Shown here one piece after another: positions 7,630 to 16,532 of a stretch of 35,545 nt of DNA. How positions within the stretch are numbered: position 1 is the first letter of the stretch; each line of letters begins with the position of its first letter. The DNA is from a virus (Duplodnaviria > Heunggongvirae > Uroviricota > Caudoviricetes). Both the position numbers and the translations under genes were made by a program. Under the pieces are notes generated by a model, which made no database searches, was not told the origin of the DNA, and saw only the letters and a program-made list of their open reading frames with translations. The stretch covers positions 1-35,545 of IMG/VR virus record IMGVR_UViG_2698536672_000015, one strand, 5' to 3'.

Positions 7630-7690
7630 GAAAGAAAGATAAAATGAAGTTGCGCACTATGCAAGTGTTTTTGTTGCGAGATATGCAATT
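7630..7690 (-). promoter_or_regulatory. Candidate leftward early promoter (pL-like) with two operator-like sites
   Basis: On the minus strand: -35 TTGCAT (7664-7659), 16-nt spacer, -10 TATCTT (7642-7637). Two 15-bp TTGC-N7-GCAA sites at 7650-7664 and 7672-7686 resemble sites in the cI/cro intergenic region. Confidence 0.4.
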
Positions 7691-7696
7691 TTATGG

Positions 7697-7723
7697 GAAA
7701 TGAAAAGCCACCTTCGGGTGGCT
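7697..7723 (-). terminator. Rho-independent terminator downstream of the cI gene
   Basis: AGCCACC-ttcg-GGTGGCT stem-loop, followed on the minus strand by TTTCATTTCC; 20 nt after the cI stop. Confidence 0.55.
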
Positions 7724-7743: not shown

Positions 7744-8436
7744 TTAATTGTGTCGCTTAAGGGTTTGTGACTGGCTGATTAAGACCTTTCCAAAGACCAT
7801 AAACCGGTGTTCATTTTCGCTGGTAATTCCCCATTCACGGTAAATCTGGTTATCAGAAATCACCAGTAGTTTGTCAGGTATCATTTGCAGTCGTTTAACA
7901 TAAATTTTATCATCAAAACCAAATACATAGATACCATCTCCATCAAACTGATTGATACTGACATCAACGAAGATGAGATCTCCTGGCTCAATGGTTGGAC
8001 ACATACTGTCCCCACGAACGTTGATAACTTTAATGTGATTGGCTGGTCGTCCGCCAAACATCGATACAGCATTATCAGTTCTGTATTCAATGGCATGAAT
8101 CACATCAATGACATCACCGCCCTGGATAAGGCCATTTCCCGCACTGGCACTGACATCCAGCATTTCAATACGGAATACATCCTTCACCTGCGCAACATCC
8201 TCACTAATACTGTTTTTACATACAGTATTACTTTTGAAGTCTGAGGTAAAGAGATCAGCAATATCAACACCTAAGCTCCTGGCAATATTACTCAGAGCTT
8301 GTTCAGTGAATTGTTTCTGCTTACCTGTTTCCAGGCGCGAAATATTCGCCGCATCCACTCCTATTGCTTCAGCGAGATCGGCGATTTTCATGTTCTTCGC
8401 CTGGCGAAGTTGTCTGACTCGATTTCCTATGTTCAT
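7744..8436 (-). CDS. cI: CI-like prophage repressor: N-terminal HTH plus C-terminal S24 LexA-like peptidase domain, 230 aa
   Basis: HTH segment IADLAEAIGVDAANISRLETG; Ala-Gly (SASAGNG) candidate cleavage site; catalytic Ser (GDSM) and Lys (VKRL); divergent from the cro-like gene. Confidence 0.85.
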   Translation of the reverse strand: MNIGNRVRQLRQAKNMKIADLAEAIGVDAANISRLETGKQKQFTEQALSNIARSLGVDIADLFTSDFKSNTVCKNSISEDVAQVKDVFRIEMLDVSASAGNGLIQGGDVIDVIHAIEYRTDNAVSMFGGRPANHIKVINVRGDSMCPTIEPGDLIFVDVSINQFDGDGIYVFGFDDKIYVKRLQMIPDKLLVISDNQIYREWGITSENEHRFMVFGKVLISQSQTLKRHN

Positions 8437-8533
8437 GCGTTTATTACATTTCTTTATTGCGCGTTAAGCAAATCAACTTGCGCAAAATATTTGCGTGAAA
8501 TAATATGCTCATCACGCAATATGTGGAGGTTAT
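8437..8533. promoter_or_regulatory. Immunity-region operator/promoter region between cI and cro
   Basis: Divergent intergenic region with repeated TTGCG(C/T)G half-sites at 8457, 8478 and 8492 and CACGCAA at 8514; TTGCGCGTTAAGCAA has TTGC-N7-GCAA symmetry; CGCAAA-ata-TTTGCG is a perfect inverted repeat. Confidence 0.55.
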
Positions 8534-8794
8534 ATGCAATCACCATTACGAAATGTGCGTAAGGCGCACGGGCTTACTTTGCAGCATGTTGCTGCGGGCG
8601 TTCAGGTTAATCCAGCAACGCTGAGTCGTATTGAGAGACTGGAACAAATTCCATCTATCGATCTTGCAGAGCGTCTGGCCAATTTTTTTAAGGGAGAAAT
8701 CAGCGAAATGCAGATTCTCTATCCTGCACGCTTTCAATCTAGTCAAAACCGGAATGAGTTAAAACCACAGGAACAGGAGGTAAGCCGTGGGTAA
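8534..8794 (+). CDS. cro: Cro-like HTH regulator (XRE family), 86 aa
   Basis: HTH segment LTLQHVAAGVQVNPATLSRIE; GGAGG RBS; divergent from cI. Confidence 0.6.
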   Translation: MQSPLRNVRKAHGLTLQHVAAGVQVNPATLSRIERLEQIPSIDLAERLANFFKGEISEMQILYPARFQSSQNRNELKPQEQEVSRG

Positions 8795-9338
8795 GCATCA
8801 CTGGAAAGTGGAAAAACAACCTGAGTGGTACGTGAAAGCTATCAGAAAAACTATCGCGGCATTGCCAGGTGGTTACGCTGAAGCTGCTGACTGGCTGGAT
8901 GTAACAGAGAACGCATTATTTAACCGCCTTCGTGCCGATGGCGATCAGTTTTTTCCGTTGGGATGGGCAATGGTTTTACAGCGTGCGGCTGGTACTCACC
9001 ACATTGCGGATGCTGTCGCACAGTCTGCTGGTGGGGTGTTTGTATCACTTCCAGAAATTGAGGAAGTAGAGAACGCTGATATCAACCAACGTCTACTGGA
9101 AGTTATTGAACAGATCGGGAGTTACTCAAAGCAGATTCGTTCGGCAATCGAAGACGGGGTAGTGGAGCCACATGAGCAGACAGCAATTAATGATGAGTTG
9201 TATCTGTCGATTTCGAAGCTCCAGGAACATGCGGCACTGGTCTACAAAATTTTCTGCGTTCCAGAAAAGAGTGACGCCCGCGAGTGTGCAGCTCCGGGCG
9301 TCGTGGCGTTTTGTGTCTGTGGAGAAACTAACGCATGA
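8787..9338 (+). CDS. Putative CII-analogue regulatory protein, possibly YdaT-like, 183 aa
   Basis: Position immediately after cro; family assignment is from memory of the cro-like/YdaT gene pairs in lambdoid prophages and is not verified. Confidence 0.35.
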   Translation: MGKHHWKVEKQPEWYVKAIRKTIAALPGGYAEAADWLDVTENALFNRLRADGDQFFPLGWAMVLQRAAGTHHIADAVAQSAGGVFVSLPEIEEVENADINQRLLEVIEQIGSYSKQIRSAIEDGVVEPHEQTAINDELYLSISKLQEHAALVYKIFCVPEKSDARECAAPGVVAFCVCGETNA

Positions 9339-9483
9339 ACAGTTTAACGGCAAATAACCGTTGGTCGCAACAGCTGGTGGTCCGCGTGGCTGAACACCTG
9401 TTGTTACGGCATGAATGCAGATTACCAAATCACCTGCCTGTAAGTAACCACAGAGAACTTTACCTGACTGTGGGGGGCGAGTT

Positions 9484-9663
9484 GTGCAGGAACTTAACCG
9501 CTGGTTTCGTGACGGAAGAGGACTTTATGTTCATGTTATTCGTTGGGAGCCAGAAACACAGCGCGTTATCTATCTTCGCAAAGACTACCCGCATGAGTGC
9601 TTTAGTCCTTTGTGGAAATTCAGGCGTGATTTTGTTGAGTGTGAAGGACCACCAGCACATTGA
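9484..9663 (+). CDS. Candidate small protein, 59 aa, GTG start (just below the 60-aa ORF-track cutoff)
   Basis: GTG at 9484 preceded by GGGGGG (spacer 6); translation VQELNRWFRDGRGLYVHVIRWEPETQRVIYLRKDYPHECFSPLWKFRRDFVECEGPPAH looks like a folded protein, unlike the overlapping frame of the long ORF. Confidence 0.35.
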   Translation: MQELNRWFRDGRGLYVHVIRWEPETQRVIYLRKDYPHECFSPLWKFRRDFVECEGPPAH

Positions 9664-9937
9664 TTCTGCCATTCCGGGACGTTACACTGTTCAGGCACCT
9701 TATAAAGCGGGTGCCGGGATTGGCGTCCTGGAATTGCATACGGCGACAATTGGCGCGTTAGCGTCTTTTTTGTTGCTACAACTCAGCTATACCCAAATTA
9801 TGGTGGGCTGGGTGGGGGCACCGAAAGGTGCGCCGGTTTCCGTATGCGCCGGTTACGCCAACCCTGCTCAGTTCACCACCAGCGAAATTGGCGTTTCCGG
9901 TGGTGGAAGTTATCCATTGCATACGGAGGCTGCCATC

Positions 9938-10483
9938 ATGGCTACGATCCCTGCCTTAGTACAACCTGAACTTTGCATTATTGCAGACAAAGTTGTTACT
10001 TCTTCTCTGGCTGTTGCTAGTTATTTCGGCAAACAACACAAAAATGTCATTCAAAAAATTGCGTCTCTTGAATGCTCTGCCGAATTTACTGAGCTGAATT
10101 TCCAGCTCAGTGAGTACATCGACGCATCAGGCCGCAAACTACCTTGCTATCAAATAACCCGCGACGGCTTTGCGTTTCTTGCTATGGGTTTCACGGGTAA
10201 ACGTGCTGCCCAGTTCAAAGAGGCATATATCAATGCCTTTAACCAGATGGAGAAACAGCTTTCAAAACCCTCTGTACCGAGCGACGTTGCACATAACGCC
10301 AGCATTCTCTATTCCTACATTTCATCAATTCATCAGGTCTGGCTGCAGCAGCTTTATCCTATGTTGGCAAAAGCCGAATCTCCGCTGGCTGTTAGCTTGT
10401 ATGACTATATTAATGATGCTTCGGCGCTGGCCTGCCTCATAAATTTGTCGCTGAACCCTTCAGAGGTAAGGGGGCGCAAATGA
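9938..10483 (+). CDS. Rha-family phage regulatory protein, 181 aa
   Basis: Rha-like domain begins directly at MATIPALVQPELCIIADKVVTSSLAVASYFGKQHKNV; a GGAGG RBS sits 8 nt upstream of the ATG at 9938. The ORF track extends this frame back to 9335, which I regard as non-genic. Confidence 0.65.
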   Translation: MATIPALVQPELCIIADKVVTSSLAVASYFGKQHKNVIQKIASLECSAEFTELNFQLSEYIDASGRKLPCYQITRDGFAFLAMGFTGKRAAQFKEAYINAFNQMEKQLSKPSVPSDVAHNASILYSYISSIHQVWLQQLYPMLAKAESPLAVSLYDYINDASALACLINLSLNPSEVRGRK

Positions 10484-11521: not shown

Positions 11522-12010
11522 ATGAGTCTTTTGAATGAAGTTCAGAAATTCATTGAAGCCCATCCGGGGTGTACTTCCGGAGACATTGCGGATGCTTTTG
11601 CTGGTTACTCACGGCAGCGCGTTCTGCAGTCAGCAAGCAAGTTACGTCAGAGTGGGCGTGTGGCTCACCGTTGTGAAGGGGATACACGCAGACATTTCCC
11701 GCGCCTGACTGAGAGAGCACAGGAGCCGGAACCACAACCAGTTCGTGAAACCAGACCTGTGCGCAATTTCTATGTCGGCACTAACGATCCCCGTGTGATT
11801 TTGTGCCTGACCCGCCAGGCTGAAGAACTAGAGTCCAGGGGCTTATACCGTCGTGCTGCAACGGTGTGGATGGCGGCATTCCGTGAAAGCCACTCCCAGC
11901 CAGAACGAAACAATTTTCTGGCGCGTCGTGAGCAGTGTTTACGGAAAAGCAGCAAGCGCGCTGTATCGGGTGATGAGTGGTATCTGTCAGGGAATTACGT
12001 GGGGGGTTAA
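11522..12010 (+). CDS. Hypothetical protein with a PerC-like C-terminal region, 162 aa
   Basis: Segment AEELESRGLYRRAATVWMAAF resembles the PerC-family motif as I recall it; unverified. Confidence 0.35.
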   Translation: MSLLNEVQKFIEAHPGCTSGDIADAFAGYSRQRVLQSASKLRQSGRVAHRCEGDTRRHFPRLTERAQEPEPQPVRETRPVRNFYVGTNDPRVILCLTRQAEELESRGLYRRAATVWMAAFRESHSQPERNNFLARREQCLRKSSKRAVSGDEWYLSGNYVGG

Positions 12011-12336
12011 TGACGACGTTAACTCAATGCCAGCAGCAGGTGCTGGATATGCTGATTTCTTATCAGAAAGAACGTGGTTTCCCGCCAACCAATCAGGAGG
12101 TGGCAGCCATGCTGGGATACCGTTCGGTGAATGCAGCGGTGGAGCATCTTCGCGCACTGGAGAAAAAAGGCGTCATCACGATAAAGCGTGGCGTGGCCCG
12201 GGGTATCACGCTTCATACCACAGTGAAGGACGACGACAGCGAGGCAGCCGGGATTATCCGCGCACTGCTTGCCGGTGAGGAAAACGCCAGGCTGCGTGCA
12301 ACTCACTGGTTACATGAGAGGGGCCTGAAAGTATGA
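12010..12336 (+). CDS. LexA N-terminal DNA-binding-domain-like protein with no peptidase domain, 108 aa
   Basis: LTQCQQQVLDMLISYQKERGFPPTNQEVAAMLGYRSVNAAVEHLRALEKKGVITIKRGVARGITL parallels the LexA N-terminal winged helix; start at the ATG at 12010 with a G-rich RBS and TAATG overlap. Confidence 0.6.
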   Translation: MTTLTQCQQQVLDMLISYQKERGFPPTNQEVAAMLGYRSVNAAVEHLRALEKKGVITIKRGVARGITLHTTVKDDDSEAAGIIRALLAGEENARLRATHWLHERGLKV

Positions 12337-15503: not shown

Positions 15504-16532
15504 TCACATGACCTCGATAATCTTATTCACAAACTCCATGTTAATACTATCATAAGAATCCTTTAAGCGCGAAGAAAAACCATTTATTACACTCTTTTTG
15601 ATAAATGTTTTTTCCAGCCCATCCAGCCTTACATTTGAAGTTTGAAGGTCAACTTGTCTTGTGAATCCTGTCTCTGGCTCTTTGAATTTTATTTTTATTA
15701 AGTCATAACCTCCATTTTTATCTTCTTTAAAGAAGTTTGAGACAGATTTTATCCATCCAAGGACATTGTTGGGGCCATGGTTTGGTACTAAGCGTAAAGT
15801 ACTTTCTTTAGGAATAATAGCCGCGTTAACATCTGGCGCATTAATAGTTCTGTATTCATTCTTTACCAAAACGACATCAGAAAGTCCTTCTTTATTTATT
15901 TTATTGAACAAATCTTCATCTAACTTTCCAGATATATCAAAGACTGGCTTGTATAATACTTTTATTTTTTTCTTTGTTAAACTTGACACTTCATTTGTTA
16001 AAGTGTTACATGAAAAGATATCTTCATTATCTTTGGCTACGTTAAAGAGAACTTTATTCAGGAAACCATTTATTTTTGCTGTGGAAACTCCTGGTATTGG
16101 CATAAAACTCATGTCATACGTTCGCATATTTCCGTCTAGAGAAATAATCATATGAGAAGAAACTTCGTAACCTTCACCTTCCTCATGTTTTGGTGATATT
16201 TCGGTGCGAACATCTGTATTAATGTTTTTTAATACAGTAGTGCTTCCATTTTTATCTACAGCATTAATTAAAAGACCAAGATGGCTGGGTTTTTTATCGG
16301 CTCTGTTTGATAAGAATATTACATCTTGTAAAGTTAAAACTAAGTCTCCTTTTTCATAACTGTGCATCATTGCTTTACAACGTACTATTTTAGAAGCAAG
16401 TTCACGCATTGTTGGTACCGGGCAAACACAGTTCGATCTGATGCTATCATCAATTTTCTGTGTACGGTATTGTGTATCGATCGTAATAGTATGATGAGTT
16501 ATTACTCTACTGAATGCGTCCAGTGTAGCCAT
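15504..16532 (-). CDS. Hypothetical soluble protein, 342 aa, K/N/D-rich; gene 1 of the AT-rich two-gene cassette
   Basis: Long uninterrupted ORF in an AT-rich block (18 G+C in 15001-15060, 30%); no Walker, kinase or other motif I can recognise. Confidence 0.65.
   Translation of the reverse strand: MATLDAFSRVITHHTITIDTQYRTQKIDDSIRSNCVCPVPTMRELASKIVRCKAMMHSYEKGDLVLTLQDVIFLSNRADKKPSHLGLLINAVDKNGSTTVLKNINTDVRTEISPKHEEGEGYEVSSHMIISLDGNMRTYDMSFMPIPGVSTAKINGFLNKVLFNVAKDNEDIFSCNTLTNEVSSLTKKKIKVLYKPVFDISGKLDEDLFNKINKEGLSDVVLVKNEYRTINAPDVNAAIIPKESTLRLVPNHGPNNVLGWIKSVSNFFKEDKNGGYDLIKIKFKEPETGFTRQVDLQTSNVRLDGLEKTFIKKSVINGFSSRLKDSYDSINMEFVNKIIEVM

What the first reader, a model, noticed from the sequence alone, without database searches (positions are those of the whole stretch)
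8208..8227. Perfect LexA-box-like palindrome TACTGT-N8-ACAGTA inside the cI repressor coding sequence
Seen in sequence: plus strand 8208-8227 reads TACTGTTTTTACATACAGTA, matching the SOS-box core CTGT-N8-ACAG with the TA flanks. It lies within the cI ORF, in the linker between the HTH and peptidase domains. I found no other CTGT-N8-ACAG match in the intergenic regions I checked by eye. Inference: it could bind host LexA or the phage LexA-like protein (12010-12336) and couple cI expression or an internal promoter to the SOS state. It may also be a codon coincidence.
Basis: partly seen in the sequence, partly recalled or inferred. Interest (0 to 1): 0.45.

Follow-up and report, generated by a model that had tools for sequence, protein, structure and literature searches.

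The report
Conserved LexA operator inside prophage repressor gene
The gene for this prophage's master repressor carries, in its own coding sequence, a binding site for the host's DNA-damage repressor LexA. The site has been kept by selection across many gut-bacterial prophages and probably switches on a shortened, DNA-binding-less copy of the repressor when the cell's DNA is damaged.

Summary
Window 8208-8227 is TACTGTTTTTACATACAGTA, inside the linker codons (N70-I77) of a lambda-type cI gene (7744-8436, minus strand; HTH + S24 peptidase). It is not a codon coincidence.

- It scores 24.9 bits on a LexA matrix, among the strongest E. coli operators. No other site in the window comes close.
- 119 of 123 distinct homologous cI genes carry a LexA box at the same codon position. 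They come from E. coli, Shigella, Salmonella ST64B, Citrobacter, Klebsiella, Pantoea, Proteus and Serratia, and reach down to about 54% identity.
- The surrounding linker is hypervariable. Two box codons encode 7-8 different amino acids yet keep the base LexA needs. Thr, Val and Ser use ACT, GTA and AGT in 41-45 of 45 representatives.

The likeliest function, inferred and not shown, is a LexA-repressed internal promoter (TTTACC-17-TACTGT) followed by a ribosome-binding site and an in-frame GTG 20 nt after the box. This would express a 147-aa peptidase-domain-only cI. The layout matches the E. coli umuD control region, and the SfII version of the box is identical to the umuD operator. The phage's own LexA-like protein is not required. 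I found no published description. Binding, transcript and protein remain untested.

The parts
8208..8227 (.). LexA operator (SOS box), a palindrome. The coding strand reads TACTGTATGTAAAAACAGTA.
   Evidence: 24.9 bits. Conserved at the same codon position in 119 of 123 distinct homologues. DNA-level constraint shown.
7744..8436 (-). cI repressor gene, 230 aa. HTH at residues 3-64, linker about 65-86, S24 peptidase domain with Ala99-Gly100 cleavage site, Ser144 and Lys181.
   Evidence: Annotated as cI in PhiR63_1, SfII and Stx2a phages.
8245..8250 (-). Putative -35 hexamer TTTACC (codons F63-T64) of the internal sense-strand promoter.
   Evidence: It lies 17 nt upstream of TACTGT. The distance from the F63 codon to the box is constant (23 nt in 111 of 119 genes). 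Predicted only.
8222..8227 (-). Putative -10 hexamer TACTGT, which is the first half-site of the LexA box.
   Evidence: 8.1 bits, similar to this phage's PR and PL candidates. Same geometry as the best-scoring E. coli umuDC promoter candidate. Predicted only.
8198..8202 (-). Shine-Dalgarno-like GAGGA upstream of the internal start codon.
   Evidence: duplex -6.8 kcal/mol. Synonymous-resampling p = 0.07 for the window. 39 of 45 representatives have p<0.2.
7744..8187 (-). Putative nested in-frame ORF starting at GTG codon 84 (8187..8185). It would encode a 147-aa product made of the S24 domain alone, with the cleavage site and no HTH.
   Evidence: BLASTP against E. coli UmuD gives E 6e-8. Predicted only.
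7706..7723 (-). Intrinsic-terminator-like hairpin just after the cI stop codon.
   Evidence: The equivalent terminator is annotated in SfII.
8437..8533 (.). cI-cro intergenic control region (OR, with PRM and PR candidates). It contains no LexA box.
8534..8794 (+). cro-like HTH gene, divergent from cI.
12010..12336 (+). Phage protein with only a LexA DNA-binding domain. It could also recognise the box, but the box does not depend on it.
   Evidence: PF01726, E 4e-19. 51% identical to E. coli LexA residues 1-68. Distribution across phages.

Best explanation
The 20-bp palindrome is a high-affinity operator for the host LexA repressor, and selection keeps it inside the linker-coding part of the cI gene. 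It overlaps the -10 and start region of an internal promoter that reads in the same direction as cI (TTTACC, 17 nt, TACTGT). In an undamaged lysogen, LexA would keep this promoter off. After DNA damage, RecA* triggers LexA self-cleavage and the promoter would fire. The resulting short-leader mRNA carries a ribosome-binding site (GAGGA) and an in-frame GTG at codon 84, 20 nt after the box. It would direct synthesis of a 147-aa cI that lacks the DNA-binding domain, a UmuD-like S24 domain with the cleavage site.

Such a protein would most probably form mixed dimers with full-length cI and weaken operator binding. It would then act as a self-encoded, LexA-gated antirepressor that adds to RecA*-stimulated cI cleavage. 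Less probably, it competes for RecA* and delays cleavage.

Shown here: the site, its strength and its DNA-level conservation. Inferred from sequence: the promoter, the RBS and the start codon. Pure inference: the protein's effect.
For: (1) Operator quality. The site scores 24.9 bits and is the only strong site in 35.5 kb. The box in SfII, S. flexneri, C. braakii and K. spallanzanii cI is identical to the E. coli K-12 umuD operator read from the genome.

(2) Selection on DNA.
- The box sits at gene nt 207-212 in 119 of 123 distinct cI genes. There are 40 sequence variants, with CTG and CAG invariant.
- Among 45 representatives, codon 70 encodes 8 different amino acids but ends in T in 42.
- Codon 75 encodes 7 different amino acids but ends in C in all 45.
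- ACT is used in 45 of 45, AGT in 45 of 45 and GTA in 41 of 45. Elsewhere in these genes those codons make up 34%, 16% and 18%.
- The box is the top-ranked of 218 seven-codon windows for third-position identity (0.857 against a gene mean of 0.556), inside the least conserved part of the protein.

(3) Promoter.
- TTTACN-17-TACTGT is the best box-overlapping promoter on the sense strand in 35 of the 45 box-bearing representatives.
- Most lineages that lack it have CTGGCA, CTGGAA, CTGGCC or TCGACT, 17-18 nt, then TATAAT inside the box (9.8-11.6 bits).
- The antisense strand shows no consistent arrangement.
- The score of 8.1 bits is close to this phage's PR and PL candidates (8.8 and 8.6). Scores that high occur about 1.0-1.4 times per kb per strand.

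(4) Translation start.
- An in-frame GTG or ATG with an SD (duplex <= -5 kcal/mol) lies 20-38 nt after the box in 24 of 25 box-bearing homologues of the first set. It is absent from the 3 box-less ones.
- Synonymous-codon resampling gives p<0.2 in 39 of 45 representatives, median 0.078.
- Val87 is GTG in 17 of 21 genes, against 22% GTG usage elsewhere.

(5) Same geometry as a bona fide LexA-regulated S24 gene.
- umuD: TTGATC-17-box-19 nt-ATG.
- cI internal region: TTTACC-17-box-20 nt-GTG.
- The truncated cI matches UmuD at E 6e-8, and UmuD/UmuD' are the closest solved sequences to the C-terminal domain.
Against: - No binding, transcript or protein data exist for this site.
- The promoter is only moderate, and its -35 comes from conserved Leu-Phe-Thr codons, so it may be a by-product of the protein sequence.
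- The half-site TACTGT resembles a -10 hexamer for any LexA box.
- SD-like strings can arise from the Glu/Gly/Asp-rich end of the linker.
- In the window, codon 87 is GTA, so the start has to be GTG84 with a rather long 10-nt spacing after the GAGGA core. Six Klebsiella-type representatives have no start within 45 nt, only one at +56.
- The representatives are phylogenetically related, so the counts overstate independence.
- This cI keeps an intact autocleavage apparatus, so a second SOS input is not obviously needed.
- The direction of the truncated protein's effect is unknown.
Confidence: 0.5

Rival explanations
1. Transcriptional roadblock or attenuation. LexA bound about 285 bp downstream of the PRM start candidate hinders RNA polymerase as it transcribes cI, which lowers full-length cI mRNA in the unstressed lysogen. 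LexA cleavage relieves the block. cI synthesis then rises early in the SOS response and buffers the prophage against induction by mild damage. No internal promoter is needed.
For: The site is of the highest-affinity class, which a roadblock would need. The linker is the only part of the gene that can hold a 20-bp palindrome without cost to the protein, which explains the fixed position. The cI-cro intergenic region is crowded with operator-like repeats. In published ST64B data, gene-level cI reads are about 1.6-fold higher after peroxide shock than in the parent medium (251 to 394 TPM in the supplement read, assuming the column order I inferred). That is compatible with this model and with the best explanation alike.
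Against: It does not explain the conserved -35-like element at a fixed 17-nt spacing, the strand asymmetry of promoter-like signals, or the enrichment of an in-frame SD plus start codon just downstream. It also does not explain the exact match to the umuD promoter/operator/start geometry. More repressor during SOS runs counter to how other LexA-linked prophage modules work. This reading can coexist with the best explanation.
Confidence: 0.2
2. The site is a functional operator whose relevant ligand is the phage-encoded LexA-DNA-binding-domain protein (12010-12336), or both proteins in sequence. After induction, this uncleavable LexA mimic would re-occupy the box and shut off cI-gene transcription to commit the phage to lytic growth.
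For: The phage protein is 51% identical to E. coli LexA over residues 1-68, including RS-NAA-EHL in the recognition helix. Every E. coli or Shigella phage record with >=90% identical cI DNA also carries it.
Against: The box is equally conserved in ST64B, the Klebsiella phages, phiNP and Eeyore, whose records lack that gene at E<=1e-5. The gene also occurs with unrelated cI genes in SfV, SfIV, cdtI and Stx2c phages. It cannot therefore be what maintains the box family-wide.
Confidence: 0.1
3. Evolutionary relic or recombination patch. The box, promoter and start are leftovers of a fusion between an HTH gene and a LexA-regulated umuD-like gene, or a conserved junction sequence that promotes exchange of N- and C-terminal modules. 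It has no present regulatory role.
For: The architecture and the C-terminal domain resemble umuD. The box sits exactly at the domain junction. A Klebsiella phage (RCIP0114) combines a related C-terminal domain (52% identity) with a different N-terminal domain.
Against: Synonymous sites elsewhere in the gene are near saturation (third-position identity 0.34-0.47 between the window's gene and all but its closest relatives). An unselected relic would have decayed. The invariant positions are exactly those LexA contacts (CTG and CAG), while positions 9, 12-14 and 20 drift. That is the signature of selection for LexA binding rather than for sequence identity as such. RCIP0114, the module-swapped relative, has no box.
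Confidence: 0.07
4. RNA-level element. The palindrome forms a hairpin in cI mRNA, for example a processing or stability signal.
For: The 6-bp arms could pair, and the element lies in a transcribed region.
Against: There is no compensatory variation. Positions 1 and 20 occur as T..A, T..G, C..A and G..A, and positions 6 and 15 as T..A or T..C. The 'loop' stays A/T-rich in the LexA consensus pattern. The box matches bona fide LexA operators base for base.
Confidence: 0.02

Closest known systems
E. coli umuDC control region (LexA-repressed promoter in front of the S24-fold protein UmuD)
   Same: In several homologues the operator is identical (TACTGTATATAAAAACAGTA); the window's differs by one base. 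The geometry is the same: a -35 hexamer, 17 nt, TACTGT, the rest of the box, then 19-20 nt to the start codon. The product would be of similar size (147 against 139 aa), with an S24 fold and a short N-terminal arm carrying the cleavage site.
   Different: Here the cassette lies in frame inside a larger gene, and its 'upstream region' also encodes the HTH domain and linker of a repressor. There is no umuC partner. Function is untested.
LexA-controlled prophage antirepressors (Tum of coliphage 186; GfoA and GftA of Gifsy prophages, PMC3121763; AntC of N15)
   Same: A host LexA operator inside a prophage links induction to LexA cleavage. The predicted product would inactivate the maintenance repressor without cleaving it.
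   Different: Those are separate small genes far from the repressor gene, and they act on repressors that RecA* cannot cleave (for Gifsy). Here the operator lies within the repressor gene itself. The putative antagonist is the repressor's own C-terminal domain, and the repressor keeps its Ala-Gly, Ser and Lys autocleavage motifs.
Nested N-terminally truncated inhibitors (Tn5 Inh made from within the transposase gene; the in-frame isoforms of the phiC31 repressor gene c). Recalled from my own knowledge, not checked here.
   Same: An internal promoter and in-frame start would yield a protein that lacks the DNA-binding N-terminus and can poison the full-length protein through mixed oligomers.
   Different: In those systems the short form is made constitutively or under other controls. 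None is gated by a consensus LexA operator in a linker.
Phage 434 Hex (PMC3564112)
   Same: A second polypeptide encoded in or overlapping the cI region modulates the response of the repressor to RecA*.
   Different: Hex is read from a different, overlapping frame on the PRM mRNA and is not LexA-regulated. It inhibits autocleavage.
Lambda-type self-cleaving cI repressors (lambda, 434, P22 C2)
   Same: HTH plus S24 architecture, a divergent cro, and autocleavage motifs.
   Different: None of the related cI families examined here at about 40% identity (Turner, SPLA1b, Mulock, Fraca, Mannheimia 587AP1, Stx2_EH2201) has a LexA box in the gene.

Membership tests
Enterobacterial LexA operator (SOS box) | 16-bp core CTGT-N8-ACAG, ideally TACTG(TA)5CAGTA | tested here: met
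   The site is TACTGTATGTAAAAACAGTA on the coding strand. It differs by one base from the umuD operator read from K-12.
Enterobacterial LexA operator (SOS box) | Matrix or heterology score within the range of proven operators | tested here: met
   24.9 bits and an HI-like value of 3.48, against training ranges of 12.8-26.6 bits and 2.3-11.9. The training sites were recalled from memory, so absolute values are approximate.
Enterobacterial LexA operator (SOS box) | Conservation of the contact bases in orthologous positions beyond what coding requires | tested here: met
   119 of 123 genes carry it, with CTG and CAG invariant.
Enterobacterial LexA operator (SOS box) | Overlap with a promoter so that LexA can repress it | tested here: inconclusive
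   A promoter-like TTTACC-17-TACTGT is predicted (8.1 bits). No transcription start data were available.
Enterobacterial LexA operator (SOS box) | LexA binding in vitro or in vivo | not testable with these tools
   Needs EMSA, footprinting or ChIP.
LexA-controlled prophage antirepressor modules (Tum, GfoA, AntC type) | A separate antirepressor gene behind a LexA-repressed promoter | tested here: not met
   No separate gene exists. The only strong LexA site in 35.5 kb lies inside cI. The putative product is a nested part of cI.
LexA-controlled prophage antirepressor modules (Tum, GfoA, AntC type) | Maintenance repressor not cleavable by RecA* | tested here: not met
   cI retains Ala99-Gly100, Ser144 and Lys181, all invariant in the family.
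Lambda-type self-cleaving cI repressor | N-terminal HTH, C-terminal S24 domain with a Ser-Lys dyad and Ala-Gly site, and a divergent cro | tested here: met
   Pfam hits, invariant columns and gene order.
Nested in-frame truncated-inhibitor genes (Tn5 Inh type) | Internal in-frame start codon with a ribosome-binding site | tested here: met
   GAGGA, 10 nt, then GTG84 in the window. An equivalent signal is present in 24 of 25 box-bearing homologues and is enriched over synonymous resampling. This is a sequence signal only.
Nested in-frame truncated-inhibitor genes (Tn5 Inh type) | Short protein detected and shown to antagonise the long form | not testable with these tools
   Needs a Western blot and genetic tests.

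The most novel reading that the evidence does not exclude
The cI gene of this widespread immunity family is a two-in-one gene. A complete umuD-like SOS cassette (promoter, LexA operator, RBS, start codon, S24 domain) is embedded in frame behind an HTH domain. The same DNA therefore encodes the lysogeny repressor and, once LexA is cleaved, a DNA-binding-less copy that acts on the repressor or on RecA*. This would be a self-contained, LexA-gated antirepressor, and a living intermediate of how HTH-S24 repressors arose by fusion with a LexA-regulated S24 gene.
Probability: 0.4. Interest if true: 0.8.

Novelty: new variant of a known kind. Interest (0 to 1): 0.68.

Why it matters
This cI type is in 1,040 of 5,426 complete E. 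coli genomes. It is also in Stx2a-converting phages of O157:H7, the Shigella serotype-converting phage SfII, Salmonella ST64B, a prophage of the O104:H4 outbreak strain, and prophages of Klebsiella, Citrobacter, Pantoea, Proteus and Serratia.

Textbook SOS induction of lambda-type prophages uses a single input, RecA*-stimulated repressor cleavage. LexA-dependent induction is thought to belong to phages with non-cleavable repressors and separate antirepressors. A selected LexA operator inside a cleavable repressor gene would mean that these prophages read both SOS signals. That could set their induction threshold and timing, which bears on toxin release and gene transfer under antibiotics.

It is also a clean natural example of a transcription-factor site maintained inside coding sequence by choice of both codons and amino acids. 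It can be tested with a few simple experiments.

Tried and rejected
- **e14 cohE/ymfK as a known K-12 analogue.** It is a different repressor family with no LexA box in the gene.
- **Literature.** Searches on LexA with cohE/ymfK/e14, with ST64B, with intragenic SOS box and cI, with prophage repressor and coding region, and with internal promoter and truncated repressor found no description of this site. The library is incomplete, so absence is not proof.
- **ST64B ncRNA STnc1310.** It is induced by peroxide, but it lies about 330 bp beyond cI, not at the box.
- **Transcription start tables for Salmonella D23580.** They are not held in the accessible supplements.
- **Antisense promoter reading towards cro.** No consistent -35/-10 arrangement appears across homologues.
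- **RNA hairpin.** There is no covariation.
- **Dependence on the phage LexA-DBD protein.** Its distribution does not match that of the box.
- **More distant cI families (about 40% identity) and a module-swapped relative.** None has a box, so the feature is clade-specific.
- **Second core match at 9438.** It is weak at 5.8 bits.
- **Structure prediction.** The single-sequence run was uninformative (pLDDT 39).
- **Operator-like repeats inside cI (8335-8349, 8186-8198).** The 8335-8349 repeat is not conserved at synonymous sites in SfII, and the 8186-8198 repeat is lost in ST64B, so they are probably chance.
Full report
**1. Observation**

Window 8208-8227 reads TACTGTTTTTACATACAGTA. It lies in a 230-aa ORF on the minus strand (7744..8436). 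That ORF has an N-terminal Cro/C1-type HTH (residues 3-64) and a C-terminal Peptidase_S24 domain (104-218). A cro-like gene runs divergently at 8534-8794, followed by a CII-like gene (CP76 family). The protein keeps the autocleavage hallmarks Ala99-Gly100, Ser144 and Lys181. On the coding strand the box is TACTGTATGTAAAAACAGTA and covers codons N70-I77 of the inter-domain linker.

CTGT-N8-ACAG occurs twice in the window against 0.37 expected. The second match (9438) has poor flanks and centre and scores only 5.8 bits. I built a symmetrised matrix from 25 E. coli LexA operators recalled from memory, so absolute values are approximate. On it the site scores 24.9 bits, better than 22 of the 25 training sites. 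The next best site in the window scores 16.4 bits, and none of 200 Markov-shuffled sequences of the same length exceeded 16.4 bits.

**2. It is not a codon coincidence**

The cI DNA has close relatives in 1,040 of 5,426 complete E. coli genomes. It also occurs in phages PhiR63_1, mEp460, 1720a-02, Stx2a_1447/WGPS2 and SfII at 92-99% identity, and in ST64B, Klebsiella phages, Citrobacter phiNP and Eeyore at 69-76%.

A first alignment of seven genes showed TACTGT...CAGT invariant in the least conserved stretch of the gene. Scans of one-genome-per-species contigs and of IMG/VR with divergent members gave 123 distinct genes of this clade.
- 119 of the 123 carry a box of at least 15 bits at gene nt 207-212. 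There are 40 different box sequences, and CTG and CAG are invariant.
- Hosts include Shigella, Citrobacter, Kluyvera, Klebsiella, Buttiauxella, Trabulsiella, Pantoea, Mixta, Rosenbergiella, Proteus and Serratia, down to about 54% protein identity.

The constraint is on DNA, not on protein. Among 45 box-bearing representatives at under 90% identity:
- codon 70 encodes eight different amino acids, yet its third base (box position 1) is T in 42;
- codon 75 encodes seven different amino acids, yet all 45 end in C (box position 16);
- Thr71 is ACT in 45 of 45, Ser76 is AGT in 45 of 45, and Val72 is GTA in 41 of 45.

Elsewhere in these genes, ACT, AGT and GTA make up 34%, 16% and 18% of their codon families. 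Third-position identity across the gene averages 0.556 and falls to 0.34-0.47 between the window's gene and all but its closest relatives, which is near saturation. The seven box codons score 0.857, ranking first of 218 windows.

Among 80 near-identical genes from IMG/VR, 3 of the 50 polymorphic sites fall in the box, all at non-contact positions 7, 10 and 20.

The arms do not covary. Positions 1 and 20 occur as C..A and G..A, and positions 6 and 15 as T..C. The 'loop' keeps the A/T pattern of the LexA consensus, so an RNA hairpin is unlikely.

The data show the opposite.

**3. Limits of the feature**

The box is missing or degenerate in only four genes:
- two Dryocola genes (TGCGGTGCAAAAGCCAGGGG and CGCTGTGCAAAAGCACAGCG);
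- one Phaseolibacter gene at 39% identity, which has also lost the cleavage and active-site motifs and instead has an 18.5-bit site 235 bp upstream of the gene;
- one IMG/VR gene with a weak box of 14.8 bits.

cI families at about 40% identity have no box (Turner, SPLA1b, Mulock, Fraca, Mannheimia 587AP1, Stx2_EH2201). Neither does Klebsiella phage RCIP0114, which joins a related C-terminal domain to a different N-terminal domain. The e14 repressor YmfK is unrelated and box-less.

**4. Which protein binds**

The window encodes a 108-aa protein (12010-12336) consisting of a LexA DNA-binding domain. It matches PF01726 at E 4e-19 and is 51% identical to E. coli LexA residues 1-68, including the recognition helix.

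All E. coli and Shigella phages with this cI carry it. So do SfV, SfIV, cdtI and Stx2c phages, which have other cI genes. ST64B, the Klebsiella phages, phiNP and Eeyore lack it yet keep the box. Host LexA is therefore the ligand that explains family-wide conservation. The phage protein may use the site as well.

**5. What the site is likely to do**

On the cI sense strand the first half-site, TACTGT, satisfies the critical TAnnnT of a -10 hexamer. A -35-like TTTACC (codons F63-T64) lies exactly 17 nt upstream.
- This arrangement is the best box-overlapping promoter in 35 of the 45 box-bearing representatives.
- Most lineages that lack it have CTGGCA, CTGGAA, CTGGCC or TCGACT, then 17-18 nt, then a perfect TATAAT inside the box (9.8-11.6 bits).
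- The antisense strand shows nothing consistent.
- The 8.1-bit score is close to the best PR (8.8) and PL (8.6) candidates of this phage. Scores that high occur about 1.0-1.4 times per kb per strand.
- The distance from the F63 codon to the box is constant (23 nt in 111 of 119 genes), whereas the linker after the box varies in length.

Downstream of the box, 24 of 25 box-bearing homologues of the first set have an in-frame GTG or ATG preceded by a Shine-Dalgarno sequence, 20-38 nt after the box. The three box-less homologues have none. The SD sequences differ between lineages (GAGGA, GGAGAGG, GAGGG, AGGAG, GGAGGGAGGG, AAGGGGGGG).

I resampled synonymous codons while keeping each protein sequence. 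The observed start signal fell in the top 20% in 39 of 45 representatives, with a median p of 0.078. Val87 is GTG in 17 of 21 genes, against 22% GTG usage elsewhere.

In the window the start would be GTG84 (8187..8185), with GAGGA at 8202..8198. The product would be a 147-aa protein made of the whole S24 domain and the cleavage site, without the HTH.

**6. The umuD parallel**

I read the E. coli K-12 umuDC control region from the genome and compared it with the window:
- umuD: TTGATC - 17 nt - TACTGTATATAAAAACAGTA - 19 nt - ATG
- window: TTTACC - 17 nt - TACTGTATGTAAAAACAGTA - 20 nt - GTG

The umuD operator is identical to the box of the SfII, S. flexneri, C. braakii and K. spallanzanii cI genes. 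The same promoter matrix gives 9.7 bits for umuD and 8.1 bits for the cI internal site.

UmuD is itself a LexA-regulated protein with an S24 fold and no DNA-binding domain. The putative truncated cI matches it at E 6e-8 (36% identity over 83 residues). UmuD and UmuD' are the closest solved sequences to the cI C-terminal domain. The linker region thus looks like a complete umuD-type expression cassette placed in frame behind an HTH domain.

**7. Best explanation and rivals**

I consider it most likely (about 0.5) that host LexA represses an internal promoter, and that LexA cleavage allows synthesis of an HTH-less cI.

From established knowledge of lambda cI and LexA, both of which dimerise through the C-terminal domain, such a protein should form mixed dimers with full-length cI and weaken operator binding. 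That would be a LexA-gated, self-encoded antirepressor acting alongside RecA*-stimulated cleavage. A RecA* decoy that delays cleavage is the alternative sign. Phage 434 Hex is a precedent for a second product of the cI region that modulates autocleavage.

The rivals are:
- a LexA roadblock on cI transcription (0.2; it can coexist with the best explanation);
- a site used mainly by the phage LexA-like protein (0.1);
- a relic or recombination patch (0.07);
- an RNA hairpin (0.02).

Chance is excluded for practical purposes.

**8. What is not shown**

There are no data for LexA binding, transcription start or protein. The -35 element may be a by-product of the Leu-Phe-Thr codons. SD-like strings can come from acidic, Gly-rich linker ends. 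Counts across homologues are not phylogenetically independent. My LexA matrix rests on recalled sites, of which only the umuD operator was verified.

Literature searches found no description of this site, but the library is incomplete.

**9. Comparison with the known, and novelty**

LexA-linked prophage control is known from Tum of phage 186, the Gifsy antirepressors (PMC3121763), N15 AntC, CTXphi and GIL01. In those systems the operator lies in front of a separate gene or at the main early promoter, and the repressor is usually not RecA*-cleavable.

Here the operator lies inside the coding sequence of a cleavable cI, and the presumptive product is part of cI itself. I class it as a new variant of a known kind. 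It fails two defining features of the antirepressor modules: a separate gene and a non-cleavable repressor. So it may work like one, but it is not a member of that family.

**10. Verdict**

The LexA-operator reading is well supported by comparative evidence. The mechanism is plausible and directly testable, but it is inferred. Interest 0.68.

Noticed in passing
window 12010-12336 (+): A 108-aa protein made only of a LexA DNA-binding domain, 51% identical to E. coli LexA residues 1-68 with the recognition helix conserved. It has a ~40-aa C-terminal tail and no S24 domain. It sits between a Dam-type methylase or PerC-like gene and rusA, and occurs in 61 phage records including SfV, SfIV, cdtI and Stx2c phages. 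It could be an uncleavable LexA mimic made during lytic growth.
   Followed up: partly
window 16220-16239: The second-best LexA-like site in the window, TAATGTTTTTTAATACAGTA (16.4 bits), has one half-site spoiled (ATG instead of CTG). It lies inside an A/T-rich 342-aa ORF on the minus strand (15504..16532) that looks like a moron. It is probably a chance match in A/T-rich DNA.
   Followed up: no
window 9436-9455: The only other CTGT-N8-ACAG match, GCCTGTAAGTAACCACAGAG, lies in the 5' part of the 382-aa Ash+Rha-domain ORF (9335..10483). It scores 5.8 bits and is unlikely to be a LexA site.
   Followed up: partly
window 8335-8349 and 8186-8198: There are operator-like sequences inside cI. GCGCGAAATATTCGC matches the central palindrome of the cI-cro region (GCGCAAAATATTTGC, 8480-8494) at 13 of 15 bases. 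ACCTGCGCAACAT, next to the putative internal start, resembles ACTTGCGCAAAAT at 8476-8488. The first is not kept at synonymous sites in SfII and the second is lost in ST64B, so both are probably chance.
   Followed up: partly
window 8455-8521: The cI-cro intergenic region is one large imperfect inverted repeat (32-nt arms, 72% complementary) centred on 8488. TTGCGC/GCGCAA-type half-sites also occur left of cI at 7642-7656, presumably OR and OL of this immunity type.
   Followed up: no
L028 2266-2285 (Phaseolibacter flectens): The most distant relative (39% identity) has lost the linker box, the Ala-Gly site and the catalytic Ser (GDSM > EDNM). It has an 18.5-bit LexA-like site, TACTGGTTAAATTTTCAGTT, 235 bp upstream of the gene. 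This may be a different way of wiring LexA to a now non-cleavable repressor.
   Followed up: partly
L029 (Actinomadura rugatobispora JCM 3366, 1.4-kb contig): An enterobacterial-type cI fragment with a perfect box (TACTGTATGTATAAACAGTG) sits on a tiny contig of an actinomycete assembly. It is most likely contamination of that assembly.
   Followed up: no
L003 (Salmonella phage 118970_sal3) 1501-2197: The cI gene of this ST64B-like phage carries single-base indels relative to ST64B and is annotated only as a 133-aa fragment, yet it keeps the LexA box intact.
   Followed up: no
ST64B in S. Typhimurium D23580 (PMC7067206 supplement): The ncRNA STnc1310 (2,099,207-2,099,280) and the genes downstream of cI rise about 2-fold on peroxide or nitric oxide shock. 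Gene-level cI reads also rise on peroxide (about 251 to 394 TPM, assuming the column order I inferred).
   Followed up: partly
L265 (E. coli O104:H4 HUSEC2011, 2,279,750-2,308,610): The 2011 outbreak strain carries this cI type (97% identical DNA), together with the LexA-DBD gene, in a non-Stx lambdoid prophage integrated next to torZ and cmoAB.
   Followed up: partly
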